A DNA stretch of 64,000 nucleotides from Candidatus Oxydemutatoraceae bacterium. Lineage in GTDB: Bacteria > Pseudomonadota > Gammaproteobacteria > Poriferisulfidales > Oxydemutatoraceae. Both the position numbers and the translations under genes were made by a program. The notes under the pieces are model-generated. The model searched no databases and was not told the DNA's origin. It saw nothing but the letters and a program-made list of their open reading frames with translations. The stretch covers positions 338,347 to 402,346 of the forward strand of contig OZ244717.1 of the NCBI GenBank assembly GCA_965218975.1, given 5' to 3'. Shown piece after piece: positions 1 through 27,487 of this stretch; position 1 is the first letter of the stretch, and every line of letters begins with the position of its first letter.

Positions 1-1043
1 ATCAGGATAAAGCTAAGGCAGCTTATCCTGACGATCTGCTTGACTGCTTGCAGAAAGATACGACATGGGTGCGCTCTCACGGTTGGAATCGGCCGCCCGG
101 CAGTCGGCGTGTCTTCTATTGGCGACCATCCAATGCCATATCGGTTGGTGCCCCGAAGGCAAGAACAGCAGCTCGACGCCAGCCACGGGTTGAAGCCATG
201 CTTCTATCTCTCACGAATACCAGCCGCAACGACCACGCGTTGCCGCCGGTGACCAGAACTTTGCCACAGGCAGAATTGCTGCATCGCAATCTCGTCGGTA
301 TTGCAGCTAAGATGCTGAAAGCTCAGCAACAAGAAAAGCATGAGGAATTGCTATCACCTGAACTGACCGGGCGCGACGACAACCGCCGACCGCTTCGAGG
401 ACCGCATGAACACGCACACATCAATCCTCTTGATCTCGACGGCGACGGGCACCTGGACCACATTCTCGTCTGGGCGCCGGGGGGACTCGGTGCCGAAGCC
501 CAGGCGGCCATTCGCGCGGCACGGACAACTTACACCAAGGGCAGCGGCGAACCGCTGCGCCTGGCACCGGCCGTAACAGGTGACCTGCAAAATTTGGCTC
601 GGTTGCCTCTGGAATACGGACAACGTGTCATCCGTCTTGTTTCCCGTTCGGTTTCTTCGGATGGCGCGACGGTTTGGGAATCCCTGACGCCCTTCGTTCC
701 TCCAAGGTATCTCAAACTGCGTGGCAAAAACACATTGGAAGGACAAATACACGCCGAGCTTCAATCGAGAGGATATCCTGAACCAGCCTCGGTGCATCCA
801 TTCGCGCCAATGTTCCGGAATCAAAATGATGCCGTGTCGGCAGGTAGCGCTGCCGGCGAACGAAGCAAAACGACCTGGAGCCGTTTCCGCCATTTCAAGA
901 TCATGCGTCAACGCGGACCGACGCCACCGGTCGTATGCTGGTTTGGCATCCGGCTGGAGTTTGATCGTCCGGTCCGAGGTCCCATAGCGCTTGGATACGC
1001 CTCGCATTTTGGTCTAGGGCTGTTCACTGCTGTTGACCCATAA
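1..1043 (+). CDS. 5'-truncated (runs off the window start) Csb2-like Cas5/Cas6-family RAMP protein; paralog of the csb2-like gene at 5847-8036
   Basis: Frame 3 is open from nt 3 to the stop at 1041-1043. The C-terminal glycine-rich loop 'GYASHFGLGLFTAV' is typical of Cas6/RAMP C-termini. Segments 'HAHINPLDLDGDGHLDHILVWAPGG' and 'VWESLTPFVPPRY' parallel 'HDHIFLAADDVDRDGLIERLIVAAPW' and 'VWESRSPYRPTRH' of the downstream 741-aa protein. Confidence 0.5.
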   Translation, partial: QDKAKAAYPDDLLDCLQKDTTWVRSHGWNRPPGSRRVFYWRPSNAISVGAPKARTAARRQPRVEAMLLSLTNTSRNDHALPPVTRTLPQAELLHRNLVGIAAKMLKAQQQEKHEELLSPELTGRDDNRRPLRGPHEHAHINPLDLDGDGHLDHILVWAPGGLGAEAQAAIRAARTTYTKGSGEPLRLAPAVTGDLQNLARLPLEYGQRVIRLVSRSVSSDGATVWESLTPFVPPRYLKLRGKNTLEGQIHAELQSRGYPEPASVHPFAPMFRNQNDAVSAGSAAGERSKTTWSRFRHFKIMRQRGPTPPVVCWFGIRLEFDRPVRGPIALGYASHFGLGLFTAVDP

Positions 1044-1086
1044 ACAGCAGCGTTGAATAGCATTTGACGTATATACTTATCGGAAT

Positions 1087-3839
1087 ATGAAAGATAGTTT
1101 TGAGAAAGATTTCAAAGAGCTGACAGGATTTCCTCCGTTCAAATGGCAGAAACGCCTTTTCTATGAGCGTTTCGCCAAAGGTGATATTCCTTCTGCGCTC
1201 GACATCCCGACAGGTCTCGGCAAGACTTCGGTGATGGTAATCTGGTATTTGGCCCGGAAGGCCAAAGCTGCATTGCCCCGGCGTTTAGTTTATGTGGTTG
1301 ATAGACGGGCAGTCGTTGATCAGGCGACAACTGTGGCCGATGAAATTAAAAAGAAATCAAAGGACGATACATTGCGGGTGAGCACGCTGCGCGGTCAACA
1401 TGTGGATAATCGGGAATGGCTTGCGGACCCAGTTGCGCCGGCCATTATTGTCGGCACCGTTGATATGATCGGCTCACGGCTGTTGTTCTCGGGTTACGGC
1501 GTATCACGCAAGATGCGCCCCTATCATGCGGGTCTGCTCGGAGCGGATACGCTCGTCGTGCTTGACGAAGCGCATTTGGTTCCACCGTTTGAAAAACTTC
1601 TCGAAAAGATTGCGAAGATTGTGAACGGAGCCAACGTATTCGGTCCGCGCGAGCAAGAGGACCGAAGAATAACGCCGCCCCTCAAGTTGCTTTCGCTGTC
1701 GGCTACAGGACGTGAAAATGATCAAAGCAGAAAAGGAGGATTCTCGCTTCTTCGCGAAGACTGGGAAGATGAAGTTGTTAAGAAGCGTCTGGAAGCACGA
1801 AAACGACTTACGATCCAAGTGCTCAATGATGCAGAAAAGCTGGCACAGGAGCTGGCCGAGCGGGCATGGAAACTTGGAGAGAAGCCGGCACGTGTGCTCG
1901 TTTATTGCGATCGCAGAAAAGATGCTGTGGAAGTAAAGAATAAAATTGATAAGAAGTTTGAGAAAGGAACCCCCGAACCTGTTTCCGAACTTTTGGTCGG
2001 CGGGCGGCGTGTGTTTGAGCGGCAAACGCTTTCTGACTGGTTGAAAGAGTACGGTTTCTTTGGCGATGCCAAAGGATCGCCAAAGCAGCCGACTTTTCTG
2101 ATTGCGACCTCAGCCGGTGAAGTAGGCGTTGATCTTGATGCGGACCACATGGTGTGCGATTTGGTCGAGTGGGAGCGCATGGTGCAGCGCCTTGGCCGTG
2201 TGAATCGGCGCGGCAACGGGGATGCCCGTATTGAGGTCGTTGCCGCGCCCCGCACGGAAAAGCCCAGCAATCAAAAAAAGGCCAAAGAGTGGGAGAAACT
2301 CTTGGCCTGTTTCCGCAAGCCGCTGGACAGCCTGCGTTGTGTCGGCGTACAGGACGAACGGGACGCGAGCCCGGGTGCGCTCCTGGAACTCAAAGAACGC
2401 GCGGAAAATCATTCGGAACTACGAAACGCGATTGAAGCGGCAACAACACCGGTCCCGTTGCGGCCGGCATTGACTCGTGCCCTCGTTGATGCGTGGTCTA
2501 TGACCTCGTTGGACGAGCATACGGGGCGACCGGACGATATTCAGCCGTGGCTGCGCGGATGGGAGGAAGATCCACAACCGCAAACTACGGTTGTCTGGCG
2601 CAAGTATCTGCCGGTACGCGCAAATGGGACCGAGACGGAGGCAACGAAGAAAGAAATTGAAGCATTTTTTGAAGCAGCGCCTCCGCATACGAGCGAGAAA
2701 CTTGAAATCGAGACTGGTAAAATTGTTGGATGGTTTTCCGAACGTGCCGAGAAACAATTCCAAATAAAGAAAACCGTCGACTCGGCGGCAGAACCAAGCG
2801 AATCCGACGACAACTCCATCGCAGATATTCAACCGTTACTGAAGAAAGATATTTGTGCCTATGTCCTGTCGCCTGCTCACGATTTGCTCTCTATACTTAA
2901 AGGGCATGACTGCGATAATAATACGAAGGTTAAAGAATACATTCTTCCCGGTTCCACGCTCATAGTGGACGCGCGCTTTGGTGGTCTTTCAGAAGAAGGG
3001 ATGCTTGCAGAAGAGGGGATGCTTGATGAGAATGCTAGCGGTCCGCCGCGCACGATTGACGACGATGAAAATTGGCTGCCTGACGATGGAGAGGGCAAGC
3101 CAACCATAAGGTTCCGTGTGCGACACGTTACTGGCGTTACTGAAAGTGACAGCACCGAGTCAAAACCAGACTCAGGTTGGCGGGAGCGGCTGAGGTTTGA
3201 TCTTAAACGTAGCGAGGAAGGCGAAGCTACCAAGTGGCTGCTCGTTGAGAAATGGCGCGACGACTCCGAAACCGGGGACGACCGTTCCATAGGTAGGTTG
3301 CAAGAATTGTGTGAGCATCACGCCTGGACGGAAGCCAAGGCGCGTAAAATAGCCAACGCTTTAGATCTGCCTGACTCCCACATTGAATTGCTAGCCGTTG
3401 CGGCACGACTGCACGATAAAGGAAAGCAACACTCATTGTGGCAACGGGCTGCCAAGGCCCCGCAGGACGGTAAAATTTATGCAAAGACGGATAAACGGAT
3501 GAATGTTAATTTGCTGAATAAATATCGTCATGAATTCGGCTCGCTTCCGTTCGCTAAAGAAGATGCAGATTTTAAGGCTTTGCCTGCTGACTTGCAGGAA
3601 CTTTCTCTGCATTTGATCGCGACACATCACGGTTATGCGCGGCCTGTCATTTCTACTAGCGGTTGCGACGACCCTCCTTCTGTTCTTGAAAAACGCGCCC
3701 GCGATGTTGCACTACGATTCGCCCAAATGCAGAAGCGATGGGGGCCTTGGGGATTGGCCTGGTGGGAATCATTGTTGCGCGCCGCAGACCAACAAGCCTC
3801 ACGCGATAATGATGACCCCAATCGAAAGAAGGATAACTA

Positions 3840-3840
<1 letters not shown>
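1087..3840 (+). CDS. cas3: Cas3 helicase-nuclease of type I-G/I-U (SF2 helicase N-terminal, HD nuclease C-terminal)
   Basis: 917 aa. Helicase motifs are I 'DIPTGLGKTS', II 'VLDEAH', V 'TSAGEVGVDLD' and VI 'QRLGRVNRRG'. The C-terminal HD domain shows 'LHDKGK' and 'IATHHGY'. The HD-at-C-terminus arrangement is the subtype I-G hallmark. Confidence 0.9.
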
Positions 3841-5814
<1,974 letters not shown>

Positions 5815-5846
5815 CAAGAATCTCATTTAAGTTTCTTGAGTTAACT

Positions 5847-8036
5847 ATGAATCGGACACTTCTCCTCTCGGCTTATTTTCATGACGGTCGCTATCACGGT
5901 GAATGTGGGCATGGCAGCAGCGAGTGGCCTCCAGCACCGGCGAGACTATTTCAGGCGCTGGTTGCCGGTGCCGCAAGAGGTGCCGAATTAGCTGGCAGGG
6001 ACGAAACGGCGCTTGAATGGCTTGAGAAGCTTGGAGCACCGGTGATTGCCGCACCAACCGTTCGCCGGGGCCAACTCTACAAAATCTATGTGCCGAATAA
6101 CGATCTCGACGCGGTCGGCGGTGACCCGAGGAAAATCAACCAGATTCGAGTCGGGAAGTACGTACATCCACATATTTTCGATGCGAGAATACCACTACTC
6201 TTCGTCTGGACATTCAATAGCGGTGCATTCAGCGAAGATCATGCTCAAGCCGTCTGCCAAATCGCGGAGCAACTCTATCAATTGGGGCGAGGCATTGACA
6301 TGGCTTGGGCTTCGGCAGAGCTTCTGGACGCAGGCGAAGTTGAAACACGCCTCAATCGTCATGGCGGTGTTGTGTATCGGCCGAGCAAAGCTGGAGTCGG
6401 CAAGATGTTGTTGTTCTGTCCAAAGAAAGGATCATTTGCGAGCCTCAAAGAGCGATACGATGCGAACAGGAAACGCTTCACCTATATAAGAAAGGGTAGG
6501 GGGTTTCAGCAACTTTTCTCTCAGCCACCTAAGCCACGGTTTGCCAGGGTCGCGTATAACGCTCCACCTCAGCGTTTTCTATTTGAGCTACGTGCAGCTA
6601 CGCACAATGAATCTTTTGTGACATGGCCATCCGCTCGAACGGTTGAGCTCGTTGTAGCTTTGCGGGATAAAGCAGCTGATAAATTGAAAGACAAACTACC
6701 CGAAGAGGCTGGAAAGATTGACCGCGTATTTATAGGCTGTGAGGCAACGGAGGCAGACAAAGCTGCCCGGATACGGATTTTACCGCTTCCTTCTATTGGT
6801 CATATCCATGCGGATCGTGCGATTCGCCGGGTACTGGTTGAAGTACCGCCAAATTGCCCGCTACGCTCGGATGACGTAGCTTGGACATTTTCCGGCCTTC
6901 CTGAGGTTGACCGAACGACCAGAGAAATCCTATGGAATCTTGTGCAGACACAAGAACGGATGATGCTCAAACACTATGGAATTAATAGCAGTAAACAACA
7001 GAGCTTCCGTGTCTGGCATACGGTTACTCCCGCGGCTCTGCCGGTCATGCGGACAGGACGCAGAAATTCCGGAGCCAAACGTGTTGCAAGGGAAGCGAAA
7101 GTAACTCGCGCTGTTATGCAAGCGCTACGTCATGCCGGAGTGACAGAACCGGTAGAGTCTGTTCGCGTGCAACGCGAACCGTTTGATCGCAATGGTTCCC
7201 GGGCAGAAGAGTTTGCGATACCCGAGCGATTTGTCGCACGTGGTCTACATCACGTGGAGATTACTTTTGCGCGAGCCATACGCGGTCCTCTTATTATCGG
7301 GAACGGCCGCTATCTTGGGCTAGGGCTGATGGCGCCGCGAGAGATCGTCGTGCGTGACGCGCTGGCTTTTCCAATAACGCCAAATATCGCTGTCGCCGAT
7401 ACTGCGCTGTTGTTACGTTCGGTCAGGCGCGCATTGATGGCATTGTCGCGAGACGGTGCTAATGGGCATGTCCCTCGACTTTTCTCCGGGCATGAGCCCG
7501 ATGGCGCACCGGCAAAATCCGGTGGACATGATCATATTTTTCTTGCCGCGGATGACGTTGACAGAGACGGACTCATTGAGCGGTTGATTGTTGCTGCGCC
7601 ATGGGTTTGCGACCACACCACCAAGGAAACTCTTAAGGATCGCACTTGCTTTGATAGAGTATCCAGGCAGTTAACCAACGTTCGAGCCGGCAGACTCGGC
7701 ATTCTTACTATTGGTCCCGCACAGACTCTGACGGTCGGCGACCCACTTGTCGGGCCTGCCTGCGTATGGGAAAGTCGTAGCCCTTATCGCCCGACACGCC
7801 ATGCCGGGCGAGGCAAAGATTTAGATGCTGCTGTCGCACGCGACATAATCGCCGAATGCGAACGTCGCGGCTTGCCTAAGCCTGAAGTCGAATTGTTAGA
7901 GCTCAACGCCGGTCCAAACGGCGGCAATCTAACTGCTCGCGCACGTCTTCGTTTTGCTGTAGCAGTTACGAAACCGATCATGCTCGGATGTGACAGCCAC
8001 AGAGGCGGAGGCCTTTTTTCCGCCGTGAGCGGATAA
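5847..8036 (+). CDS. csb2: Cas5-Cas6 fusion (Csb2-like), unusually long at ~730 aa
   Basis: There are two RAMP glycine-rich loops, internal 'IRGPLIIGNGRYLGLGLMAP' and C-terminal 'GCDSHRGGGLFSAVSG'. The N-terminal 'EWPPAPARLFQALVAG' motif is present. The listed TTG start at 5811 overlaps the cas7 stop, and the ATG at 5847 is preferred. Confidence 0.6.
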   Translation: MNRTLLLSAYFHDGRYHGECGHGSSEWPPAPARLFQALVAGAARGAELAGRDETALEWLEKLGAPVIAAPTVRRGQLYKIYVPNNDLDAVGGDPRKINQIRVGKYVHPHIFDARIPLLFVWTFNSGAFSEDHAQAVCQIAEQLYQLGRGIDMAWASAELLDAGEVETRLNRHGGVVYRPSKAGVGKMLLFCPKKGSFASLKERYDANRKRFTYIRKGRGFQQLFSQPPKPRFARVAYNAPPQRFLFELRAATHNESFVTWPSARTVELVVALRDKAADKLKDKLPEEAGKIDRVFIGCEATEADKAARIRILPLPSIGHIHADRAIRRVLVEVPPNCPLRSDDVAWTFSGLPEVDRTTREILWNLVQTQERMMLKHYGINSSKQQSFRVWHTVTPAALPVMRTGRRNSGAKRVAREAKVTRAVMQALRHAGVTEPVESVRVQREPFDRNGSRAEEFAIPERFVARGLHHVEITFARAIRGPLIIGNGRYLGLGLMAPREIVVRDALAFPITPNIAVADTALLLRSVRRALMALSRDGANGHVPRLFSGHEPDGAPAKSGGHDHIFLAADDVDRDGLIERLIVAAPWVCDHTTKETLKDRTCFDRVSRQLTNVRAGRLGILTIGPAQTLTVGDPLVGPACVWESRSPYRPTRHAGRGKDLDAAVARDIIAECERRGLPKPEVELLELNAGPNGGNLTARARLRFAVAVTKPIMLGCDSHRGGGLFSAVSG

Positions 8037-8521
8037 GCGCATAGAACTGTTGCCGAGACGAGCGTGTGAACACCTGCTATGGTGGCGCCCTAATTTGATT
8101 TTCCCTTTACAGGTTCCAAAACCCCTTTTGGCTATAATAGATACTATTATTAACGTATTAACGGCATCCTCGCGAGGACGATTATGGTCGGAGCTATCAA
8201 GCTCGGATCAGTTGGTTATGGACGCAACCAAGTAAACCGGAGTGTTTTTGTCGTTTGCCACCGAAACAGACTGATCATTGGACAACAATCGGAAAATCTG
8301 GTGAAAAAATATTGATTTACCAACAGGATATTGTGAAATATATACTAATTAGATTAGAAGAGGGGAATTTCGGCAATTCTTATCTAGTATCGGCTCGGGC
8401 GAAAATGATTCAGAGCGATGTCTTTTACGGAGTAATGAAAAGCCTTGCGAGAAAGAAAAAAGGTTGCCGGTCACGCTATCGTGATTGGTCGAAATAAAAC
8501 CCGTCGATTGCGCTTAGCGCA

Positions 8522-10243
8522 ATGCTCATGCCAAGACAAGTGATCCAACAGGAATTACCCCTGCCTTTTCCAAAGCTTGGCGCAGACATGCCATTATTGC
8601 CGGCGCGTATGGTGAATGAGTACGAATATTGCCCGCGTCTCGCTTATCTGGAGTGGGTACAAAAAGAATGGGCAGATTCGTCGGATACCGTCGAGGGCAA
8701 GTATCGGCATCGTCGCGTCGATAGATTCGGGGGCAATTTGCCGGACCCGGAGCAGGTGGCGGCAGACGAAACATTTCACGCGCGTTCGATTACTTTGTCC
8801 TCGAATCAACTCGGGGTTATTGCAAAACTTGATTTGGTGGAAGGGGAAGGCAATGCCGTTATCCCTGTAGATTATAAAAAGGGGAAACGCCCCCATGTGG
8901 CACGAGGTGCATACGATCCCGAACGTGTTCAACTATGCCTGCAGGGCATGTTGTTGGAAGAGCACGGTTATGAATGTGCGGAGGGGATCTTGTATTACGC
9001 GGAATCGAAGGAACGGATACGTGTGATCTTTGATAAAGAATTGAAAAACAAAACCCTGTCCGCAGTCTCTAGCCTGCGCCTCATGGCTGCCGGCAAAAAA
9101 ATGCCGCCGCCTTTGGAAGACAGCCCTAAATGCCCGCGTTGTTCTTTGGTTGGCATCTGCCTTCCGGATGAAGTTAACTTTTTGAAGTATATGAAAACAC
9201 CGCCGAGACCTCTAAGTGTCGCGCAGGACGACAGCCTTCCGGTATATGTGCAGGCCAACCGCGCCTCTGTCAAAAAGGCAGGAGAGACTCTGGAAATCCT
9301 GGTTGAGGATAAGTTAGTCAAGAAAGCCCGTTTGCCGGAGGTTTCGCAAGTAGTCTTAATGGGCAATGTATATCTCACCACTCCCGCTTTGTGCGAACTC
9401 ATGCGCCGGGAAATTCCGATCACTTGGCATTCCTTTGGCGGCTGGTTTCTGGGGCATACCATTGGCACCGGACACAAAAATGTCGAGCTGCGCACGGCAC
9501 AGTTCAAGGCCAGTTTTGATGAACAGGTGTGTCTGACTTTGTCTAAAGGGTTCGTGCGCGCCAAGATTCAGAATTGTCGCATCATGATGCGGAGAAACTG
9601 GAAGCTGAAAGATAAGCCTGCCAGACTGTACCGTGCATTTCACCAAGATGCTAACCGGTCTGACCGTGTGTCTTCAATAACCGAATTATTGGGTGTGGAG
9701 GGTAATGCGGCAGCGCGATATTTCGGTGAATTTCAAAATTTGATCAAGCGGGAAAAGGACACGGATCAATTTATTTTTGAGTTTGAGAAGCGCAACCGTC
9801 GTCCGCCGGCAGACCCAGTCAATGCTTTATTGTCATACGCTTATAGCCTTTTAACACGTACCTGGACGGTTACCCTTACTGCGGTAGGGTTTGATGCATA
9901 CCGTGGATTTTTTCATCAGCCCCGCTATGGCCGTCCGGCGCTGGCGCTGGATATGATGGAACCCTTTCGTCCTTTGGTTGCCGATTCCACAGTGTTGATG
10001 GCAATTAACAACGGTGAAGTTCGTCCGGGCGATTTCATATCTGCGGCTGGTAGCTTCAATCTGACGCCTGCAGGAAGAAAACGGTTTATCGGAACATTTG
10101 AACGGCGACTGAGTCAGGAAATTATTCACCCGCTGTTCGGCTATAAAATCAGTTACCGCCGCCTGTTTGAGGTGCAAGCCAGACTGTTGGCTCGATTCCT
10201 TCTTGGCGAGTTGATTGAGTTTCCCCAATTTACCACGCGGTGA
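8522..10243 (+). CDS. cas1: Cas4-Cas1 fusion protein (adaptation module of type I-G)
   Basis: The N-terminal Cas4 domain shows 'YEYCPRLAYLEW' and a C-terminal Cys cluster 'CPRCSLVGICLPDE'. A Cas1 domain follows, giving 573 aa. The Cas4-Cas1 fusion is characteristic of I-G/I-U. Confidence 0.9.
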   Translation: MLMPRQVIQQELPLPFPKLGADMPLLPARMVNEYEYCPRLAYLEWVQKEWADSSDTVEGKYRHRRVDRFGGNLPDPEQVAADETFHARSITLSSNQLGVIAKLDLVEGEGNAVIPVDYKKGKRPHVARGAYDPERVQLCLQGMLLEEHGYECAEGILYYAESKERIRVIFDKELKNKTLSAVSSLRLMAAGKKMPPPLEDSPKCPRCSLVGICLPDEVNFLKYMKTPPRPLSVAQDDSLPVYVQANRASVKKAGETLEILVEDKLVKKARLPEVSQVVLMGNVYLTTPALCELMRREIPITWHSFGGWFLGHTIGTGHKNVELRTAQFKASFDEQVCLTLSKGFVRAKIQNCRIMMRRNWKLKDKPARLYRAFHQDANRSDRVSSITELLGVEGNAAARYFGEFQNLIKREKDTDQFIFEFEKRNRRPPADPVNALLSYAYSLLTRTWTVTLTAVGFDAYRGFFHQPRYGRPALALDMMEPFRPLVADSTVLMAINNGEVRPGDFISAAGSFNLTPAGRKRFIGTFERRLSQEIIHPLFGYKISYRRLFEVQARLLARFLLGELIEFPQFTTR

Positions 10244-10247
10244 GACA

Positions 10248-10538
10248 TTGGAAGAACATCTTTATGTCATTGCTTATGACATTTCCGATCAAGCAAGGGG
10301 GCGCCTGATATTCAAACTGCTGCATGGTTATGGGGAATGGTTGCAAATGTCTGTCTTTCAATGCCGGCTATCCCGTCGTCGTCATGCGGAATTGATTGCC
10401 ATGCTGGACGAAATTATCCACCACACGGAAGATCATGTTATGCTGATGGACCTGGGATTAGCGGATTCGGTTAAACCGAAAATTGTAAGTCTAGGCAAAG
10501 GTTTTCAACCGGTGGAAAGGGAACCGATTATTGTCTGA
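10248..10538 (+). CDS. cas2: Cas2
   Basis: 'EEHLYVIAYDISDQARGRLIFKLLHGYGEWLQMSVFQCRL' matches the Cas2 N-terminal beta-strand/DIS motif. The TTG at 10248 is 5 nt after the cas1 stop. The listed 10215 start would overlap cas1. Confidence 0.7.
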   Translation: MEEHLYVIAYDISDQARGRLIFKLLHGYGEWLQMSVFQCRLSRRRHAELIAMLDEIIHHTEDHVMLMDLGLADSVKPKIVSLGKGFQPVEREPIIV

Positions 10539-10614: not shown

Positions 10615-10690
10615 TTCTTTGACAATCAGTATCTTACAGGTGACATCTTGCAAAAAAAATACAAGAAACACGACAGTGTTATGATGCATT
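10615..10690 (+). promoter_or_regulatory. Candidate CRISPR leader promoter within the 211-bp AT-rich leader
   Basis: Consensus -35 'TTGACA' at ~10619. An extended -10-like 'TGtTATGAT' at ~10677 lies ~65 bp upstream of the first repeat. Confidence 0.25.
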
Positions 10691-10749
10691 TAGACCTCTC
10701 GAAATGGCTTTCTATAATCTTTGCCAAACAATAGGTTATGGGATGTGCT

Positions 10750-13700
10750 GTATTCCGTAGCTATATGCTACGGCCTCATTGAAGCATCTCCATTTTATAC
10801 GCGGCAGAATTACCGCGTGATGTATTCCGTAGCTATATGCTACGGCCTCATTGAAGCGATATGGCCACATTCGGCGATGAGGACGATGACATCAGTATTC
10901 CGTAGCTATATGCTACGGCCTCATTGAAGCTAGAAGTAGTGGTTTTATACCTTGATAGAAGTTTTGTTGTATTCCGTAGCTATATGCTACGGCCTCATTG
11001 AAGCCGACACTGTATGTGATCGCGAGCTACTCTGTGACACGTATTCCGTAGCTATATGCTACGGCCTCATTGAAGCGAGAATAATGAAAAGTAAGATGAA
11101 AACACCTGCTTATGTATTCCGTAGCTATATGCTACGGCCTCATTGAAGCTTTTGCAGCAAGCTGCTAAAATTATGATAACAGATTGTATTCCGTAGCTAT
11201 ATGCTACGGCCTCATTGAAGCTTCTAAGTTCGGCTTCCATCATTTGTTGAGCACCTGGTATTCCGTAGCTATATGCTACGGCCTCATTGAAGCATCTACA
11301 AGTCGCTCGCATCTCCGCACGTCATCGGCGTATTCCGTAGCTATATGCTACGGCCTCATTGAAGCAGCACCGGTAGTTTCTGTTGAAGAACTTGCTATGA
11401 AGTATTCCGTAGCTATATGCTACGGCCTCATTGAAGCCAATGCCAAAGACCTAATGCACCATGTCATTAGATGTATTCCGTAGCTATATGCTACGGCCTC
11501 ATTGAAGCATCGACCAGCCGCTCGCATTTCTGCACGTCATCGGCGTATTCCGTAGCTATATGCTACGGCCTCATTGAAGCGAGATAACCGTCAGTAATTC
11601 CGCAAAGAATTTTGTGGTATTCCGTAGCTATATGCTACGGCCTCATTGAAGCGATTACTTGGGCACAAGAAACGAAAGCAGCATATCGTATTCCGTAGCT
11701 ATATGCTACGGCCTCATTGAAGCGAATTTTCAAGCGTTTGCGTGTACCAGATATGCCGGGTATTCCGTAGCTATATGCTACGGCCTCATTGAAGCCGTAC
11801 AGGCAGTCACGCATCGGAGATCGGCATCGCGGTATTCCGTAGCTATATGCTACGGCCTCATTGAAGCGAGAGGTTAGCTGCACCTGCCGACTGGAAAGAA
11901 TCAAGTATTCCGTAGCTATATGCTACGGCCTCATTGAAGCTCGAGTTATCTTCGCGTTAGTCGGGTCAAAAAATAGTATTCCGTAGCTATATGCTACGGC
12001 CTCATTGAAGCCTGCAATTCAACCTGCAAACCGTTTTTTACAATGCGGTATTCCGTAGCTATATGCTACGGCCTCATTGAAGCTGCCGCAAGTGTCGGGT
12101 TGCCGAAGTCGTTAAATGCGTATTCCGTAGCTATATGCTACGGCCTCATTGAAGCTTTACCCCGCTCCACAATGGCCATGATTGCTGCGTAGTATTCCGT
12201 AGCTATATGCTACGGCCTCATTGAAGCTGCGGGTCGCCGACGCAAGAAAAAAGGTTGCATTAGGTATTCCGTAGCTATATGCTACGGCCTCATTGAAGCT
12301 TGGCGGGACGCAACTAAGTCGACCGAAGGGTTAGGTATTCCGTAGCTATATGCTACGGCCTCATTGAAGCTGGGCTGTACCCTGACGACTCCTGCGAATT
12401 TGATGATGTATTCCGTAGCTATATGCTACGGCCTCATTGAAGCGCGGTAAACGCTAACTCCATGTTCAGCTAATCGGCTGCGTATTCCGTAGCTATATGC
12501 TACGGCCTCATTGAAGCCTCACTGCCTTCGTTTCCTTCCAGCATAATTACAGCGTATTCCGTAGCTATATGCTACGGCCTCATTGAAGCTATATTTTTTT
12601 TCTACATCTTCCATGTTTTATCTCCGTATTCCGTAGCTATATGCTACGGCCTCATTGAAGCCCACGATTATCTTTGTGTTGCGAATGATTGCCGAGGTAT
12701 TCCGTAGCTATATGCTACGGCCTCATTGAAGCCGGTGTAAAATCATCCATCAAAATAACGGTCTTGCTGTATTCCGTAGCTATATGCTACGGCCTCATTG
12801 AAGCAAGAAATTGAACATCGGCTACAGCTATGATACCTGACGTATTCCGTAGCTATATGCTACGGCCTCATTGAAGCTGTTTTGTAGTAGTGCATTGTTA
12901 GCAGTTCGTTTGTGTATTCCGTAGCTATATGCTACGGCCTCATTGAAGCTTCTCCAATAACTGTTGGGTCAGGCACAAGGCCTGCGTATTCCGTAGCTAT
13001 ATGCTACGGCCTCATTGAAGCTAGTAAGATCATTAGTTCTGCTGTTTTGAGATTCCGGTATTCCGTAGCTATATGCTACGGCCTCATTGAAGCTGCAAGA
13101 GCTAATTGAAGGTGGAAAAAATGGCAGGTGTATTCCGTAGCTATATGCTACGGCCTCATTGAAGCAACGTTACACAGAATTAGTTGTATAGACTTATTAG
13201 GGTATTCCGTAGCTATATGCTACGGCCTCATTGAAGCCCACGATTATCTTTGTGTTGCGAATGATTGCCGAGGTATTCCGTAGCTATATGCTACGGCCTC
13301 ATTGAAGCCGGTGTAAAATCATCCATCAAAATAACGGTCTTGCTGTATTCCGTAGCTATATGCTACGGCCTCATTGAAGCTCATTGACTCGGGATATGGA
13401 CGTCCTCGATTCTTTAGTATTCCGTAGCTATATGCTACGGCCTCATTGAAGCTATGCAAAAGATACCGAAGAATACAATAATTTGAAGTATTCCGTAGCT
13501 ATATGCTACGGCCTCATTGAAGCTTTGAAGATCAATATGTATTCAATCGTTAAGTTGGGGTATTCCGTAGCTATATGCTACGGCCTCATTGAAGCACATT
13601 GGATAGTGCTGCGATTGAGCCTTTTATGAGAGGTATTCCGTAGCTATATGCTACGGCCTCATTGAAGCCCATTCTCCAAAGCTGCCGCGAGAAACCCGTT

Positions 13701-15981
13701 CCCGCGTATTCCGTAGCTATATGCTACGGCCTCATTGAAGCTCTACGGTGATCTGACCGAGCACTTCCAACTCAGCGTATTCCGTAGCTATATGCTACGG
13801 CCTCATTGAAGCTACGCAGCGGTACGGCGTCTCGGAGCCGCACACTTGGGTATTCCGTAGCTATATGCTACGGCCTCATTGAAGCGAGGCAGCTTTGTCC
13901 ATTTGCTGGAGCCGCACGCGGTATTCCGTAGCTATATGCTACGGCCTCATTGAAGCCGGTGTAAAATCATCCATCAAAATAACGGTCTTGCTGTATTCCG
14001 TAGCTATATGCTACGGCCTCATTGAAGCTCATTGACTCGGGATATGGACGTCCTCGATTCTTTAGTATTCCGTAGCTATATGCTACGGCCTCATTGAAGC
14101 TATGCAAAAGATACCGAAGAATACAATAATTTGAAGTATTCCGTAGCTATATGCTACGGCCTCATTGAAGCTTTGAAGATCAATATGTATTCAATCGTTA
14201 AGTTGGGGTATTCCGTAGCTATATGCTACGGCCTCATTGAAGCACATTGGATAGTGCTGCGATTGAGCCTTTTATGAGAGGTATTCCGTAGCTATATGCT
14301 ACGGCCTCATTGAAGCCCATTCTCCAAAGCTGCCGCGAGAAACCCGTTCCCGCGTATTCCGTAGCTATATGCTACGGCCTCATTGAAGCCTCACTGCCTT
14401 CGTTTCCTTCCAGCATAATTACAGCGTATTCCGTAGCTATATGCTACGGCCTCATTGAAGCTATATTTTTTTTCTACATCTTCCATGTTTTATCTCCGTA
14501 TTCCGTAGCTATATGCTACGGCCTCATTGAAGCGCGGATGATAATTTGTGCAATTCCCTCATTTGCCTTAAGTATTCCGTAGCTATATGCTACGGCCTCA
14601 TTGAAGCCCGGAAGTTAAAGTCCCCATGTCCGCAGTTAAAGCGGAGTATTCCGTAGCTATATGCTACGGCCTCATTGAAGCGGCTCGGCAATTTCAGTCA
14701 TCAAATCTTTATAACTCGTATTCCGTAGCTATATGCTACGGCCTCATTGAAGCATGATGGTGTTTTAGCACCGTCATGAATGATGTTAAGTATTCCGTAG
14801 CTATATGCTACGGCCTCATTGAAGCTTGTTGCAGTATTTATTTTTATCTCGCTTGTCATGTTGTATTCCGTAGCTATATGCTACGGCCTCATTGAAGCTG
14901 GTAAGCACATTCGACTCAACCATGGCTTTCCTCACGTATTCCGTAGCTATATGCTACGGCCTCATTGAAGCTGTGTGGCGGAATGTCCCTTTTGGGTATA
15001 GTTTATCCGTATTCCGTAGCTATATGCTACGGCCTCATTGAAGCAGCGAAGAAGCCGATGAGGCAGGCGTATATATAGTGTATTCCGTAGCTATATGCTA
15101 CGGCCTCATTGAAGCGACCGCTGTAACTACGACCTGTCACATTACATAATGTATTCCGTAGCTATATGCTACGGCCTCATTGAAGCGGTGCTTTACTCAC
15201 GCATTCAAGGAATCCGGCGCATGTATTCCGTAGCTATATGCTACGGCCTCATTGAAGCAAATCTCCGTTGTTGTGGTGCCGGCAAGAGCGCCGGGTATTC
15301 CGTAGCTATATGCTACGGCCTCATTGAAGCAACCTTTGCATCTGGGGATAAAAAACAGTACTGGAATGTATTCCGTAGCTATATGCTACGGCCTTATTGA
15401 AGCATTGCAAATCATCCATATACGGATAAGGAAACAAAGTATTCCGTAGCTATATGCTACGGCCTCATTGAAGCTTTGGCTTCTATTGTTCTGCGCGGTT
15501 CGGGTACGCATGTATTCCGTAGCTATATGCTACGGCCTCATTGAAGCCCAACTATTTGGTCAACACCTATCAACCCAGAAATAAGTATTCCGTAGCTATA
15601 TGCTACGGCCTCATTGAAGCGACTCAACGCTAATGACGCATACGGCAAAGCCGGATGTATTCCGTAGCTATATGCTACGGCCTCATTGAAGCGGCGTTGG
15701 GTAAATCTCAGCTAGTGCGTAAAGTGCACGTATTCCGTAGCTATATGCTACGGCCTCATTGAAGCGATTTTCTAAGTCAGGAAGCTCCAACCCGCAACAT
15801 AGGTATTCCGTAGCTATATGCTACGGCCTCATTGAAGCAAGCCGCTGTTATATCGAGTGGTCAAGGAGTGAGTGGTATTCCGTAGCTATATGCTACGGCC
15901 TCATTGAAGCTTTTCGTTATTGGGACGCAAGTCATTCCAGGAGACGTATTCCGTAGCTATATGCTACGGCCTCATTGAAGC
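10750..15981 (+). CRISPR. CRISPR array, ~73 repeats of 36 bp (GTATTCCGTAGCTATATGCTACGGCCTCATTGAAGC) with ~35-37 nt spacers
   Basis: A perfect 36-bp direct repeat recurs at ~72-73 bp periodicity, with an internal 7-bp palindrome CCGTAGC-TATAT-GCTACGG. The 3' 'ATTGAAGC' end resembles the I-C/I-G 'ATTGAAAC' handle. The leader is cas2-proximal. One repeat (15368-15403) carries a C>T variant. Confidence 0.97.
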
Positions 15982-16010
15982 GCGATTAAATGTTTTTCGT
16001 AAATTTATGC

Positions 16011-16901
16011 TCAACGTTCACCACTGAATAAAGCCTCTTGAATGTCGCCTTGAATACAATTCTTCACGCCATTCGCATTTCTTTGTTTTGTATTTTTAAC
16101 AGGTTTCCTAAGTGGTTGCCCATTATGTTCAAGATACCCAAGAACTCTCCGCAAGCCAATTTCAACATGCTTTTGTGATCTTTCAATACCGATGCTTTTT
16201 CTACCTAATGTTCGTGCAACTGCATTAGTAGTAAATGCTCCTGCAAACGGGTCAAGAATTATATCTTCTTTATTTGAACTTGCTTGAACAATTCTTTGAA
16301 GAAGCGTTTCAGGTTTTTGGGATGGATGATCTTCATATTCATCCATCTTGTAACGTACTCGAGGAAAATACCAAACATTTCCTGGAACTTTTTTCGTATT
16401 ATAAATCGTTGGAATCTTTTTTCTGTAGTCAATAAGTTTACGTTTAGCCCCCGTTTTAGCTTCTATAGCAATTGTGTCAGCGTTAAAAGTGTAATTATCA
16501 AGATCTTTCACACAGAAAAGAATCGGTTCATACATGGAACCATAATATTTTTTCGCTTGCACCCCCGAACTATCATATGACCAAATAATTCTGCTAAGTA
16601 TGTTTATTCTCTTTCTCAATATAATATCTATGTAGGGCATAGCTTGGGTGCTTGTCATCACATACATAGAGCCTTGAGATGAAAGTTTATCAATACAAAG
16701 AGTTAACCATTTCTCACACCATTCAGCATACGCTTCATCAGAAGGCCATTTGTCATCAAATCCATCAAAGCGTTTCCCAATGTTGTAAGGGGGATCAGCA
16801 AATATCAAATCAATTGAATTATTAGCAATTTTATCGCGTAATACTTCTATTGCATCGCCTTGGTAAATGGCATGATTTTTTATTTCGTATTTTTTAATCA
16901 T
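16011..16901 (-). CDS. DNA methyltransferase, beta-class (motif IV 'DPPYNIG' precedes motif I 'LDPFAGAFTT'); N6-adenine or N4-cytosine
   Basis: 296 aa with both catalytic and AdoMet-binding motifs. The start codon is 4 nt downstream of the IS1595 transposase stop. Confidence 0.85.
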   Translation of the reverse strand: MIKKYEIKNHAIYQGDAIEVLRDKIANNSIDLIFADPPYNIGKRFDGFDDKWPSDEAYAEWCEKWLTLCIDKLSSQGSMYVMTSTQAMPYIDIILRKRINILSRIIWSYDSSGVQAKKYYGSMYEPILFCVKDLDNYTFNADTIAIEAKTGAKRKLIDYRKKIPTIYNTKKVPGNVWYFPRVRYKMDEYEDHPSQKPETLLQRIVQASSNKEDIILDPFAGAFTTNAVARTLGRKSIGIERSQKHVEIGLRRVLGYLEHNGQPLRKPVKNTKQRNANGVKNCIQGDIQEALFSGER

Positions 16902-16905
16902 TAAA

Positions 16906-17826
16906 TCAAGCTACCAATTGTTCATAAGTAATCGTCTTCCCAACCATGGCCTTAAAGAGATCATCAAGTCTGTCCTGTGTATCACGTTTCACATTGCCTT
17001 CATTAAGTCTGAATGTAAACTCATTTACATATTGTTGACAATGCTTCTTGCTCCAATTGTGGTAAACACCATTGAAGCCACGTTTAATCACTGACCATAC
17101 AGATTCAACTCCATTAGTATGCGCCATCCCGTTAACATATTCTCTTGCTGAATGTTTTACGCTTTCATGCTGATAATAGTCGCCTCCAATATCTTTATAA
17201 CCCTTGTGGTCATCCGTATAAATGGTGGTACCCACTTCAATGTTAGCAAGAACAGCACTATGAATAGTAGCCTTGTCTTCACCTTCAACTGGCATAGCTT
17301 TTACACGGCCTTCCCGTTCTCTCATACCCAGCACAGCCTGCTTTCCCACAGTACCGCGTCCGGCCTTGAGTTTCTTATGAGAGTGTTTATTCTTTTCAGC
17401 CCTACCAATATAGGTGGCGTCCATTTCCACTTCACCACTCAAGGCTTCAAGATTGTTGCCGCAAGCTAAACGTAGCCTATGCAGCATGTACCAGGCTGTC
17501 GGATAGCTAACGTCCAGTTCCTTGCTTAATTGCATGGCGGAAATACCTTTACGGGCGGTCATAAGCAGATACGCTGCAAATAGCCACATACGGGCATCAC
17601 GCACCCTGTTATGTTCAAGTGGGGTTTCTGTGAAAGCATTGAAATATCCGCGACAATCGCCGCACCAATAACCTTTCTTGTAGTTCTTTTGCTTGGTGAT
17701 TCTGCCGGTACAGCCGCATTTGACACATACAGGCTTAGTTCCCCATCTAAGCTGCTCAAGCTTCGGCAAAAATGTTTTCAAGGGCAATTTCATAATTGGA
17801 CTCTTTTGGCGATAGACCCCGTTCAA
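16906..17826 (-). CDS. IS1595-family (ISXO2-like) DDE transposase
   Basis: N-terminal zinc ribbon 'CVKCGCTGRITKQ...CGDCRGYF', a 'TAWYMLHRLR' helix and a DDE core 'IYTDDHKGY...HTNGVESVWSVIKRGFNGVYHNWS' are present. The start may be the second Met (17793). Confidence 0.8.
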   Translation of the reverse strand: MNGVYRQKSPIMKLPLKTFLPKLEQLRWGTKPVCVKCGCTGRITKQKNYKKGYWCGDCRGYFNAFTETPLEHNRVRDARMWLFAAYLLMTARKGISAMQLSKELDVSYPTAWYMLHRLRLACGNNLEALSGEVEMDATYIGRAEKNKHSHKKLKAGRGTVGKQAVLGMREREGRVKAMPVEGEDKATIHSAVLANIEVGTTIYTDDHKGYKDIGGDYYQHESVKHSAREYVNGMAHTNGVESVWSVIKRGFNGVYHNWSKKHCQQYVNEFTFRLNEGNVKRDTQDRLDDLFKAMVGKTITYEQLVA

Positions 17827-18193
17827 TTGATTTATTGCGGGTCACGCCCCGTGCCTTTAGGCAGGCAACTTTTAGGAGCCACTCATCAACATCCGGAATC
17901 CATTGTTCCTTTGTATCCGAAGGCAGCAGAAAAAGTCTTTGCTTCCCACCTTCGAGAAAGGGACTTTGTAAATTGTCACGTATATTTTTTAAAAGTATAT
18001 CGCTTGCTACAGAATCATCATAAATTTTATGGCACCAATTCCAAATCGGACCAAGTTTATCGGCCTTATCAACCACTTCCCCTGTTTCATCAAGGAGGAT
18101 ACTAACAGGAATTAGCTTCTTGTCGAACGCCTTCTTAGGATCAACAAGAGATTTACCGATTTTGGAATTTCGGTAACGTAATTCTTCCTTCAT
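17756..18193 (-). CDS. Hypothetical protein (145 aa), last gene of the GHKL/desulfurase operon
   Basis: Co-directional ORF after the 300-aa gene. No recognisable motif. Confidence 0.4.
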   Translation of the reverse strand: MKEELRYRNSKIGKSLVDPKKAFDKKLIPVSILLDETGEVVDKADKLGPIWNWCHKIYDDSVASDILLKNIRDNLQSPFLEGGKQRLFLLPSDTKEQWIPDVDEWLLKVACLKARGVTRNKSIERGLSPKESNYEIALENIFAEA

Positions 18194-18298
18194 CTACCAA
18201 TTTAATCCAATCATGAATTGAGCGTTCTTTATAGATTGTTTCCATAGTCTGTTGTCCTCCTTATCGGAAATACAACCTCTGCATCGACAATTGCAGCT

Positions 18299-23202: not shown

Positions 23203-23206
23203 ATGT

Positions 23207-24568: not shown

Positions 24569-24623
24569 TACGGCCTGCCTCCAAAAATCCGGGAATTATT
24601 AAGATTCGTTGACAAGGACTGAC

Positions 24624-24968
24624 TTATTCAACCTCTTCCATGATTGGTTTTCCCTTGCGACCTACCCGCATTCTAAACTTTCTTTGCAAGTCTTTCTTGA
24701 AAACATAGGTTCGATTAAGAGGGTAAAACTCGTTCATCATCGAAAGTTTAGACATGACAAAAGAGTCTTTATCGTAATTTTCATCAAAATCGCAACCCCA
24801 TCCAAAGCAAACAAACGGCGTCAGAGCCTCATGGTTCATCGCTGCCCTGATGCCTATCAGATTCTTGCCAAGTCGTTCTATAGCGTTTCCTTGTGCCTGT
24901 TTTTTCTTTCCTTCCTGTTCACGTTCCCTATTCGTTCCCTGTTTCTTTATTTCTGAAACAACAATCAA
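24624..24968 (-). CDS. Possible small protein (114 aa) at the head of the sulfur-modification-like operon
   Basis: Co-directional ORF 55 bp upstream of the PP-loop gene. Lys/Glu-rich N-terminus, no motif. It may be non-coding. Confidence 0.25.
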   Translation of the reverse strand: MIVVSEIKKQGTNREREQEGKKKQAQGNAIERLGKNLIGIRAAMNHEALTPFVCFGWGCDFDENYDKDSFVMSKLSMMNEFYPLNRTYVFKKDLQRKFRMRVGRKGKPIMEEVE

Positions 24969-25031
24969 TTTGCGGTAGTTGGCATCATTTTCCTTTCTCA
25001 GCCAGATTACCCCGCCATCGGGTATTATTGT

Positions 25032-27060: not shown

Positions 27061-27166
27061 TTTCCCCTAACCTGAGCTTAAGTTACGAGGCGCAGGCCTT
27101 ATTCTTTACTCGCCCGCGGGGAGGATCCTCGCGGGGACCTTCCAGCGGTAACAACAGGAGACTATT

Positions 27167-27376: not shown

Positions 27377-27487
27377 CCCGGGCATCACCGCCTATTCTTA
27401 AAACTTGGTTTCGCGTCTGCTCGCGAAATCCTACTCTAAATTGATGATACAAACCATGGGTTTTTATCCTTAGCCTGCCTATCAGCA

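What the first reader, a model, noticed from the sequence alone, without database searches (positions are those of the whole stretch)
1..1043. A second csb2-like (Cas5/Cas6) paralog immediately upstream of cas3
The window opens inside a gene whose C-terminal ~190 aa parallel the Cas6-like C-terminal domain of the 741-aa csb2-like protein. Both share the HxH.......DGDG/DRDG segment, the 'VWES..P..P.R' segment and a terminal G-rich loop.

It ends 43 bp before cas3. Type I-G loci normally have a single cas5-cas6 gene downstream of cas7. This implies either a second effector module upstream of the window or an unusual standalone Cas6-like crRNA-processing gene.
Basis: seen in the sequence. Interest (0 to 1): 0.55.

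Follow-up and report, generated by a model that had tools for sequence, protein, structure and literature searches.

The report
Second type I-G csb2 gene, tandem module
The window opens inside an intact, ordinary csb2 (Cas5-Cas6 fusion) gene that is almost certainly the last gene of a second, Csx17-type type I-G CRISPR effector module lying just upstream, placed head-to-tail with the complete Cas8g2-type I-G locus inside the window.

Summary
Window 3-1043 (+) encodes the last 346 residues of a 569-aa protein (P0001, 100% identical). It stops 43 bp before cas3g. Full-length P0001 scores 174.6 bits against the NCBIfam Csb2 equivalog (cut-off 45). Its C-terminal domain is homologous to residues 536-741 of the 741-aa Csb2 (hhalign probability 99.4%, E 3e-21), so the similarity is not just glycine loops.

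It is not a standalone Cas6. In 18 of 18 related loci this Csb2 subfamily is the last gene of a Csx17-type cluster, normally ordered cas3g-csx17(Cas8g1)-csb1-csb2. A Csx17-type Csb1 (P0323), absent from the window, is recorded on a contig of the same length (2,081,000 bp) as the window's proteins. One sponge-symbiont MAG (L011) has the same tandem of Csx17-type and Cas8g2-type modules.

Cas8g1-only, Cas8g2-only and window arrays share one repeat family (...CGGCCTCATTGAAGC). The single 73-repeat array could therefore feed both effectors, but that is inference.

The upstream DNA itself could not be retrieved. The gene is an ordinary member of a known family. The fused two-module arrangement is uncommon and modestly interesting.

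The parts
3..1043 (+). 3' part of csb2 (residues 224-569 of the 569-aa Csb2 P0001): the interdomain linker plus the whole Cas6-like C-terminal domain. Csx17/Cas8g1-type subfamily.
   Evidence: The ORF was translated and is 100% identical to P0001. TIGR02165 scores 78 bits for the partial protein and 174.6 bits for the full-length one. The window-encoded part matches 141 of 147 columns that are at least 90% conserved in the subfamily.
405..461 (+). Subfamily-invariant HxHxH...D...DG..DH segment (P0001 H358, H360, H362, D367, D371, G372, D375, H376). The HxH part is shared with the long Csb2 (H573, H575). Its role is unknown; it may bind RNA or a metal.
   Evidence: Invariant columns of alignment A1, consensus of A2 and the hhalign pairing.
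1005..1007 (+). Invariant His558 in the terminal SHFGLG glycine-rich loop. It is the candidate catalytic histidine of the Cas6 domain.
   Evidence: The residue is invariant in A1, and the paired H730 is nearly invariant in A2. The published catalytic histidines of Csb2 lie near the C-terminus (T. sulfidiphilus H503, PMC9638904; B. animalis H520, bioRxiv 10.1101/2022.08.19.504415). Equivalence to those residues was not checked by alignment and is inferred.
1044..1086 (+). 43-bp spacer between the upstream csb2 and cas3g, with no promoter-like or terminator-like site.
   Evidence: The consensus scan found nothing in this interval.
1087..3840 (+). cas3g of the Cas8g2-type module (917 aa).
   Evidence: TIGR02621 scores 619 bits. 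It is 41-46% identical to the Cas3 of Cas8g2-type loci (L016, L011) and only about 25% identical, in the helicase region only, to Csx17-type Cas3.
3840..4760 (+). cas8g2 (small large-subunit variant, 306 aa).
   Evidence: TIGR04106 scores 125.3 bits against a cut-off of 125. It is 34% identical to Cereibacter cas8c.
4714..5814 (+). cas7g/csb1 of the Cas8g2-type module. The true start is probably the ATG at 4762.
   Evidence: TIGR02570 and PF09617 both match. Alignments to orthologues begin at residue 23-24.
5811..8036 (+). Long-form csb2 (741-aa ORF; the probable start is M13 at 5847). Residues 16-509 are covered by TIGR02165, and residues 536-741 form the Cas6-like domain homologous to the upstream gene.
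   Evidence: The long form is a large family: 552 representatives at E<1e-30, most of them 700-750 aa.
8522..10538 (+). cas4/cas1 fusion (8522-10243) and cas2 (10215-10538).
   Evidence: NF049935 scores 817 bits and TIGR01573 also matches. The Cas4/Cas1 protein is 54-61% identical to those of both Cas8g1-type and Cas8g2-type loci.
10750..15981 (+). CRISPR array of 73 repeats, 72 of them identical: GTATTCCGTAGCTATATGCTACGGCCTCATTGAAGC.
   Evidence: Pattern search. The repeat folds into a 7-bp stem, followed by 4 nt and an 8-nt AUUGAAGC handle.

Best explanation
Window 3-1043 is the 3' end of an intact csb2 gene. Csb2 is the Cas5-Cas6 fusion subunit of type I-G Cascade. This copy belongs to the Csx17/Cas8g1-type subfamily. 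It is most likely the last gene of a second effector module (cas3g, csx17, csb1, csb2) lying just upstream of the window. That module is joined head-to-tail, with only 43 bp and no terminator, to a complete Cas8g2-type I-G locus: cas3g-cas8g2-cas7g-long csb2-cas4/cas1-cas2-array.

By analogy with characterised family members, the window-encoded C-terminal Cas6 domain would bind the repeat hairpin. It would cut 4 nt downstream of the 7-bp stem to leave an 8-nt AUUGAAGC 5' handle, and then stay on the 3' hairpin. The Cas5-like N-terminal half, which lies outside the window, would dock it onto the Csb1 backbone.

Both I-G variants use the same repeat family. Both effectors could therefore draw crRNAs from the single 73-repeat array and the single adaptation module.

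Shown directly: the identity of the gene, the homology of the Cas6-like domains, the synteny in relatives, and the relatedness of the repeats. Inferred: the presence of the upstream module in this genome, co-transcription with cas3g, the catalytic residue, and array sharing.
For: Family: full-length P0001 scores 174.6 bits on the TIGR02165 Csb2 equivalog (cut-off 45), aligned over residues 5-566.

Intactness: P0001 matches 239 of 246 columns that are at least 90% conserved in 76 relatives.

Homology to the 741-aa Csb2: BLASTP E 6e-8 and hhalign probability 99.4%, E 3e-21. The Cas5-like N-terminus also matches (HMM positions 5-170 against 741-aa residues 19-186).

Synteny: csb1 lies directly upstream of this csb2 subfamily in 18/18 loci. 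Every locus with enough flank also carries csx17 (TIGR04113, 532-599 bits) and a Csx17-type cas3g.

This genome: P0323 is a Csx17-type Csb1, 77% identical to the L012 Csb1 and a singleton cluster. It is not encoded in the window and is unrelated by BLASTP to the window's own Cas7g.

Same tandem elsewhere: L011 carries a Csx17-type module at 574-9080 and a Cas8g2-type module at 12081-18980.

The downstream cas3g belongs to the Cas8g2 module. It is 41-46% identical to Cas8g2-type Cas3 and about 25% identical to Csx17-type Cas3. A Cas8g2-type locus is complete on its own in a Cereibacter plasmid.

Repeats: the window array, a Cas8g1-only locus (L012), a Cas8g2-only locus (L016) and an archaeal locus (L010) share TTCCG-stem-loop-stem-CGGCC(T/C)CATTGAAGC. 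The fold is a 7-bp stem, then 4 nt, then an 8-nt handle. This is the geometry reported for T. sulfidiphilus Csb2 cleavage (PMC9638904).

Junction: no promoter-like or terminator-like site lies in the 43-bp gap.
Against: The DNA upstream of the window could not be obtained. Look-ups for P0001, the window's Cas3g and P0323 all returned nothing.

A Csx17 search listed no protein from a 2,081,000-bp contig among its best 120 hits. This is weak evidence, because Csx17 diverges fast: it is 50-64% identical between loci whose Csb2 proteins are 80-84% identical.

Structure gave only weak support. The AF2 model has mean pLDDT 71. The best Foldseek PDB hits are RAMP proteins at E 7e-4 (a type I-A Cascade subunit) and E 0.046 (Cas6 4c9d_A). 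The domain-only model (pLDDT 62) gave no meaningful hit.

Sharing of the array is untested. Some relatives carry cas4/cas1 upstream on the other strand (L009, L019), so the upstream module might have its own array.
Confidence: 0.75

Rival explanations
1. Partial or relic module. Only csb1-csb2, or csb2 with a degraded neighbourhood, survives upstream, without its own Csx17 and Cas3. The Csb2 would then be either a redundant extra pre-crRNA processing enzyme for the downstream system or a gene on its way to being lost.
For: No Csx17 from a 2,081,000-bp contig appeared among the 120 best Csx17 hits. The direct 43-bp junction to a foreign-type cas3g shows the locus has been rearranged. The GC content of the csb2 fragment (57%) differs from that of the downstream module (48-53%) and of the window (48%).
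Against: The Csx17 negative is weak, because Csx17 diverges quickly and only 120 of 4554 hits are listed. P0001 keeps 239 of 246 highly conserved positions, so it is not decaying. An apparently full-length Csx17-type Csb1 is recorded on a contig of the same length as the window's proteins. None of the 18 relatives has csb1-csb2 without csx17 and cas3g where the flank allows a check.
Confidence: 0.17
2. Accessory subunit of the downstream system. The upstream Csb2 works with the Cas8g2-type Cascade, for example as a second crRNA-processing or capping subunit, rather than with a Cascade of its own.
For: The 43-bp spacing and the absence of a terminator suggest co-transcription with cas3g. The repeat family is common to both variants.
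Against: A Cas8g2-type locus works with a single long Csb2 and has a WYL regulator gene, not csb2, in front of cas3 (Cereibacter plasmid). The two Cas7 families show no BLASTP similarity. The N-terminal docking halves of the two Csb2 proteins are only distantly related, so cross-assembly is unlikely. In 18/18 relatives this Csb2 travels with its own Csb1.
Confidence: 0.05
3. Standalone Cas6-like crRNA endonuclease gene.
For: Only the Cas6-like half is visible inside the window.
Against: The identical database protein is 569 aa. Its N-terminal 220 residues align to the Cas5-like part of TIGR02165 and to the N-terminus of the 741-aa Csb2.
Confidence: 0.02

Closest known systems
Csb2 of the Thioalkalivibrio sulfidiphilus type I-G (Cas8g1/Csx17) system (Shangguan et al., NAR 2022, PMC9638904)
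   Same: It has the same gene order (cas3-cas8g1-cas7-csb2) as the relatives of the window gene. It is the same two-domain Cas5-like plus Cas6 protein with a catalytic histidine near the C-terminus. The repeat geometry is also the same: 36-nt repeat, 7-bp stem, cleavage 4 nt below the stem, 8-nt handle.
   Different: I could not align the T. sulfidiphilus sequence, so residue equivalence (H503 against H558) is inferred. In T. sulfidiphilus the module stands alone. Here its csb2 abuts the cas3g of a second, Cas8g2-type module.
Long-form Csb2 of Cas8g2-type I-G loci (NCBIfam cas5_6_GSU0054 and cas8c_GSU0052 models; Cereibacter azotoformans plasmid p4; the window's own 741-aa protein)
   Same: It shares the Cas5-like N-terminus and a homologous C-terminal Cas6-like domain (hhalign E 3e-21). 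It uses the same repeat family.
   Different: It is only about 25% identical in the Cas6-like domain. The long form has roughly 170-200 extra residues, including an internal glycine-rich loop at 480-509, which is where TIGR02165 and PF09609 end. Its partner proteins differ: Cas8g2 of about 300 aa against Csx17 of about 750 aa, Cas7 without BLASTP similarity, and Cas3 about 25% identical.
Bifidobacterium animalis Csb2 (Csb3-type I-G; Chhetry & Anand, bioRxiv 10.1101/2022.08.19.504415)
   Same: It has a similar size (545 aa), with Cas5-like residues 1-250 and Cas6-like residues 251-545. Catalytic H520 and D530 lie near the C-terminus, and the RNase is metal-independent.
   Different: It belongs to a different large-subunit variant. 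No sequence comparison was made here.
Genomes in which different CRISPR-Cas effector modules share crRNAs or arrays (established for mixed type I/type III systems; cited from my own knowledge, not checked here)
   Same: More than one effector module sits next to one adaptation module and one array, with a repeat compatible with both.
   Different: Here both modules are of the same subtype (I-G) but of two deeply diverged variants. They are apparently fused into one gene string. Sharing is inferred and has not been shown.

Membership tests
Type I-G Csb2 (Cas5-Cas6 fusion; NCBIfam TIGR02165) | Score above the curated equivalog cut-off over the full length | tested here: met
   The full-length protein scores 174.6 bits (cut-off 45), with residues 5-566 aligned to profile positions 4-491. 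The window part alone scores 78.1 bits. Pfam PF09609 did not report the window part.
Type I-G Csb2 (Cas5-Cas6 fusion; NCBIfam TIGR02165) | Two-domain architecture: a Cas5-like N-terminal RAMP domain plus a Cas6-like C-terminal domain | tested here: inconclusive
Type I-G Csb2 (Cas5-Cas6 fusion; NCBIfam TIGR02165) | The gene lies directly downstream of csb1/cas7g in a cluster with cas3g and cas8g | tested here: inconclusive
   This holds in 18/18 related loci. In this genome the upstream DNA is outside the window and could not be retrieved. The indirect support is a Csx17-type Csb1 (P0323) recorded on a contig of the same length as the window's proteins.
Type I-G Csb2 (Cas5-Cas6 fusion; NCBIfam TIGR02165) | Conserved histidine next to the C-terminal glycine-rich loop (published catalytic residues T. 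sulfidiphilus H503 and B. animalis H520) | tested here: inconclusive
   His558 (window 1005-1007) in SHFGLG is invariant in 77 sequences, and its partner H730 is nearly invariant in the long family. Equivalence to the published residues was not verified by alignment.
Type I-G Csb2 (Cas5-Cas6 fusion; NCBIfam TIGR02165) | A cognate repeat with a hairpin and an 8-nt 5' handle nearby | tested here: met
   The 73-repeat array lies at 10750-15981. The repeat has a 7-bp stem, then 4 nt, then AUUGAAGC. It is of the same family as the repeats of Cas8g1-only and Cas8g2-only loci.
Type I-G Csb2 (Cas5-Cas6 fusion; NCBIfam TIGR02165) | Endonucleolytic processing of pre-crRNA | not testable with these tools
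   This needs a biochemical assay.
Standalone Cas6 endoribonuclease | A single Cas6 domain protein of about 200-280 aa without a fused Cas5-like domain | tested here: not met
   The protein is 569 aa with a conserved Cas5-like N-terminal half.
Cas8g1/Csx17-type variant of subtype I-G (as opposed to the Cas8g2 type) | Csb2 subfamily that co-occurs with Csx17 (TIGR04113) | tested here: met
   The closest homologues (47-70% identical) all sit in csx17-containing clusters. The protein is only about 25% identical to Cas8g2-type Csb2. Csx17 of this genome itself was not seen.

The most novel reading that the evidence does not exclude
The locus is a fused dual-effector type I-G system. Two deeply diverged I-G Cascades sit side by side: a Csx17/Cas8g1 type with a Cas3g (Fic-fused in relatives), and a Cas8g2 type. 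They are probably co-transcribed and both are loaded from one 73-repeat array through two different Csb2 processing subunits. This would give the host two PAM-recognition and Cas3-recruitment machineries for the same spacer memory, for example as insurance against PAM escape or anti-CRISPR proteins. The arrangement recurs in a sponge-symbiont gammaproteobacterial MAG (L011).
Probability: 0.4. Interest if true: 0.5.

Novelty: new member of a known kind. Interest (0 to 1): 0.3.

Why it matters
The gene itself is an ordinary Csb2, so it should simply be annotated as such. The point of interest is the architecture. Two variants of subtype I-G share no recognisable Cas8 or Cas7 similarity, yet they have near-identical repeat 3' halves and interchangeable Cas4/Cas1 proteins. 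Here they sit 43 bp apart next to one array. If both are active on the same crRNAs, this is a natural experiment. It would show how far Cascade proteins can diverge while keeping crRNA compatibility. It would also be a candidate example of effector redundancy within one subtype. On the practical side, the curated Csb2 models end at an internal glycine-rich loop of the long form. They miss the domain that is homologous to the catalytic Cas6 domain, which matters for annotation and for engineering of I-G systems.

Tried and rejected
1. Direct retrieval of the upstream DNA failed. Exact look-ups of P0001, the window's Cas3g and P0323 returned nothing. The genome-collection and metagenome scans found only relatives, not the source contig.

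2. A Csx17 search meant to find a same-contig hit listed none among its best 120. I judged this uninformative because Csx17 diverges fast.

3. Sequence searches of solved structures with both Csb2 proteins gave only chance-level hits.

5. A viral-contig scan with the Csb2 alignment found one distant relative, which I did not follow up. The plasmid collection holds no P0001 relative.

6. A search of all spacers against the phage collection, intended to find protospacers and PAMs, gave no match.

7. A literature search on the Cas8g1/Cas8g2/Csb3 names was dominated by unrelated uses of 'CSB3' and turned up no description of tandem I-G modules.

8. I considered that the downstream cas3g might be the partner of the upstream csb2, as in the permuted archaeal order csb1-csb2-cas3g-csx17 (L006, L010). 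I rejected this because the window's Cas3g is of the Cas8g2 type.

Full report
**1. What is at the coordinates**

A single open frame runs from window position 3 to the TAA at 1041-1043 on the + strand. The 346 encoded residues are 100% identical to residues 224-569 of a 569-aa database protein, P0001. P0001 is a singleton cluster seen on one contig of 2,081,000 bp from NCBI/ENA. The window's own Cas3g (P0121) is recorded on a contig of the same length.

**2. The rest of the locus**

Downstream lies a complete type I-G CRISPR-Cas locus of the small-Cas8 variant:
- cas3g, 1087-3840 (TIGR02621, 619 bits)
- cas8g2, 3840-4760 (TIGR04106)
- cas7g, 4714/4762-5814
- a long csb2, 5811/5847-8036
- a cas4/cas1 fusion, 8522-10243
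- cas2, 10215-10538

An array of 73 repeats follows at 10750-15981, and 72 of the repeats are identical. TIGR02165 and PF09609 cover only residues 16-509 of the 741-aa Csb2.

**3. Is the similarity real?**

Yes. Three independent comparisons agree:
- Pairwise BLASTP gives E 6e-8 between the window protein (partial residues 133-344) and residues 571-739 of the 741-aa protein.
- An HMM I built from 115 relatives of P0001 hits the 741-aa protein, and its L011 orthologue, in four collinear pieces. These are the Cas5-like N-terminus (19-186), an internal glycine-rich loop (480-508), and 539-692 plus 711-739.
- Profile-profile comparison of 77 P0001 relatives (A1) with 72 long Csb2 proteins (A2) gives probability 99.4% and E 3.2e-21 over 205 columns. 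It pairs P0001 314-569 with 536-741.

[quoted passage not shown] In characterised relatives that domain is the catalytic Cas6 domain. In the long form it is the last ~200 residues, which lie outside the curated models. The long form is the norm for its variant: 552 cluster representatives at E<1e-30, most of them 700-750 aa and covering the whole query.

**4. What the gene is**

Full-length P0001 scores 174.6 bits on the NCBIfam equivalog for Csb2 (cut-off 45), aligned end to end. Homologues are numerous, with 2287 at E<=1e-3. Sources that give a name call them type I-U Csb2 or Cas5/Cas6. P0001 keeps 239 of the 246 positions that are at least 90% conserved among 76 relatives, including 141 of 147 in the window-encoded part. 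It therefore looks like a working gene.

Invariant residues in the window part:
- an HxHxH...D...DG..DH segment (H358/H360/H362...H376; window 405-461)
- W448, S450, P453 and R458
- G554, Y555, S557, H558 and G562 in the terminal loop (H558 = window 1005-1007)

Published work places the catalytic histidine of Csb2 close to the C-terminus. It is H503 in T. sulfidiphilus (PMC9638904), and H520 with D530 in B. animalis (bioRxiv 10.1101/2022.08.19.504415). I infer that H558 is the equivalent residue but could not align those sequences.

Structure prediction gave moderate confidence (pLDDT 71). The Foldseek PDB hits are weak and are essentially all RAMP proteins: a type I-A Cascade subunit at E 7e-4, Csm/Cmr subunits, and Cas6 4c9d_A at E 0.046. 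This is consistent with the assignment but not decisive.

**5. Where this subfamily lives**

I collected 18 loci with P0001 relatives that are 47-70% identical:
- 11 from reference genomes
- 1 from JGI metagenomes
- 6 by exact look-up

In all 18, a csb1/cas7g gene ends a few bases before csb2. In every locus with enough flank there is also a csx17 (Cas8g1; TIGR04113, 532-599 bits in the two tested) and a Cas3g of a distinct type. The usual order is cas3g-csx17-csb1-csb2. That is the order of the experimentally studied T. sulfidiphilus system. Two Nitrosopumilaceae MAGs have the permuted order csb1-csb2-cas3g-csx17 (L006, L010).

So this Csb2 is the terminal subunit gene of the Csx17-type I-G effector. 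It is not a standalone Cas6.

**6. Is that module present in this genome?**

The upstream DNA could not be obtained. I therefore used the contig length reported with database hits as a handle.

A Csx17 query listed no 2,081,000-bp contig among its best 120 hits. That result is weak, because Csx17 is only 50-64% identical between loci whose Csb2 proteins are 80-84% identical.

A Csb1 query did list P0323. It is 312 aa, 77% identical to the L012 Csb1, a singleton, on one contig of 2,081,000 bp, with NCBI+ENA sources. P0323 is not encoded anywhere in the window. It has no BLASTP similarity to the window's own Cas7g.

Together with the 18/18 adjacency, this makes an upstream csb1-csb2 pair very likely and a full module likely.

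**7. The neighbouring cas3g is not its partner**

The window's Cas3g is 41-46% identical over its full length to the Cas3 of Cas8g2-type loci. It is only about 25% identical, in the helicase region only, to Csx17-type Cas3.

A Cas8g2-type locus is self-sufficient in a Cereibacter azotoformans plasmid. There a WYL-domain gene and an HTH regulator, not csb2, precede cas3.

The same tandem of a Csx17-type module followed by a Cas8g2-type module occurs in L011, a sponge-associated gammaproteobacterial MAG. In L011 the two modules are separated by 3 kb that contains a HicB-like gene. The tandem did not occur in about 12 other relatives with downstream flank.

The window's junction is tighter, at 43 bp, with no promoter-like or terminator-like site. 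This suggests read-through transcription, but that is inference. The csb2 fragment is somewhat GC-richer (57%) than the downstream module (48-53%).

**8. One array for two effectors?**

The repeats are:
- window: GTATTCCGTAGCTATATGCTACGGCCTCATTGAAGC
- L012 (Cas8g1-only): GAATTCCGAGGCATATTTGCCTCGGCCTCATTGAAGC
- Cereibacter L016 (Cas8g2-only): CCTTCCGAGGCGGGCACGCCTCGGCCTCATTGAAGC
- archaeal L010...TTCCGCGGCTGAAAAGCCGCGGCCCCATTGAAGC

All have a 7-8-bp stem with compensatory changes. After the stem come about 4 nt and then the 8-nt AUUGAAGC. This matches the cleavage geometry reported for T. sulfidiphilus Csb2.

Cas4/Cas1 proteins are equally similar (54-61%) across the two variants.

The two variants thus share crRNA and adaptation features while their effector proteins have diverged almost beyond recognition. 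It is plausible, but unproven, that both Csb2 proteins process the single array. The upstream module may also have its own array further upstream.

**9. Verdict**

The gene is an ordinary member of a characterised family. The fused arrangement of two I-G variants is uncommon and recurs in at least one other genome. I did not find it described in two literature searches. Interest is modest.

Noticed in passing
L012 3183-6680; also L014, L015, L017 and L019 (split into two genes in L018): The Cas3g of the Csx17-type modules carries a C-terminal Fic domain (PF02661; it also matches 'mobile mystery protein B'), giving proteins of 1130-1230 aa. The archaeal versions (L006, L010) and the window's Cas8g2-type Cas3g lack it. 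A Fic (AMPylation-type) domain fused to a CRISPR helicase-nuclease is unexplained here.
   Followed up: partly
window 5811-8036 (residues 480-509 and 510-741 of the 741-aa Csb2): The curated Csb2 models (TIGR02165, PF09609) end at an internal glycine-rich loop of the long-form Csb2. The last ~230 residues are the true homologue of the Cas6 domain of the 569-aa form and are not covered by either model. The long form therefore seems to have an extra RAMP-like module.
   Followed up: partly
window 4714-4762 and 5811-5847: The longest-ORF starts of cas7g and the long csb2 are probably too early. Orthologue alignments begin at about residue 23 and residue 13. This points to ATG 4762 (just after the cas8g2 stop) and ATG 5847.
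   Followed up: partly
window 10750-11112: The CRISPR array starts at 10750, five repeats earlier than the tandem-repeat finder reported (11113). A promoter-like site (TTTAGA-18-TATAAT, 10689-10718) lies in the leader just upstream.
   Followed up: yes
window 16011-30455: A defence island lies downstream of the array. It holds an N6/N4 DNA methylase (16011-16901, -), an IS1595-family transposase (16906-17826, -) and a cluster on the - strand. The cluster has an SspA/DndA-like cysteine desulfurase (22048-23274), PADLOC candidates PDC-M33A/B (19194-22051) and a weak SspD-like hit (23207-24568). A type II methylase (27910-29661) with a TdeIII restriction endonuclease (29670-30455) follows.
   Followed up: partly
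window 26656-26951, 27629-27851, 51988-52201, 52322-52457, 54984-55119: Copies of a ~67-110-bp element (core CCAGCCCCGACATCCTTGTCGGGTCGTTCGCCGCTGAAAACCGTTCGGTTTTCCGGGCGCG...) recur in intergenic regions, often as tandem pairs. It looks like a REP/MITE-type repeat with internal hairpins.
   Followed up: no
window 52832-54632 (inside ORF 52746-54761, +) and 30890-32234 (-): Long in-frame tandem repeats occur within coding regions: 369-bp units x 4.9 at 88% match, and 108-bp units x 2.5-5.5. They suggest repeat-domain proteins.
   Followed up: no
L006 and L010 (Nitrosopumilaceae MAGs): Thaumarchaeal genomes carry the same Csx17-type I-G module with 52-54% identical Csb2, in a permuted order (csb1-csb2-cas3g-csx17). 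This implies inter-domain transfer of the module.
   Followed up: no
window 405-461 (P0001 residues 358-376): The strictly conserved HEHAHINPLDLDGDGHLDH segment resembles a metal-binding or DxDxDG-type loop. Csb2 cleavage is reported to be metal-independent, so its role is unexplained.
   Followed up: no
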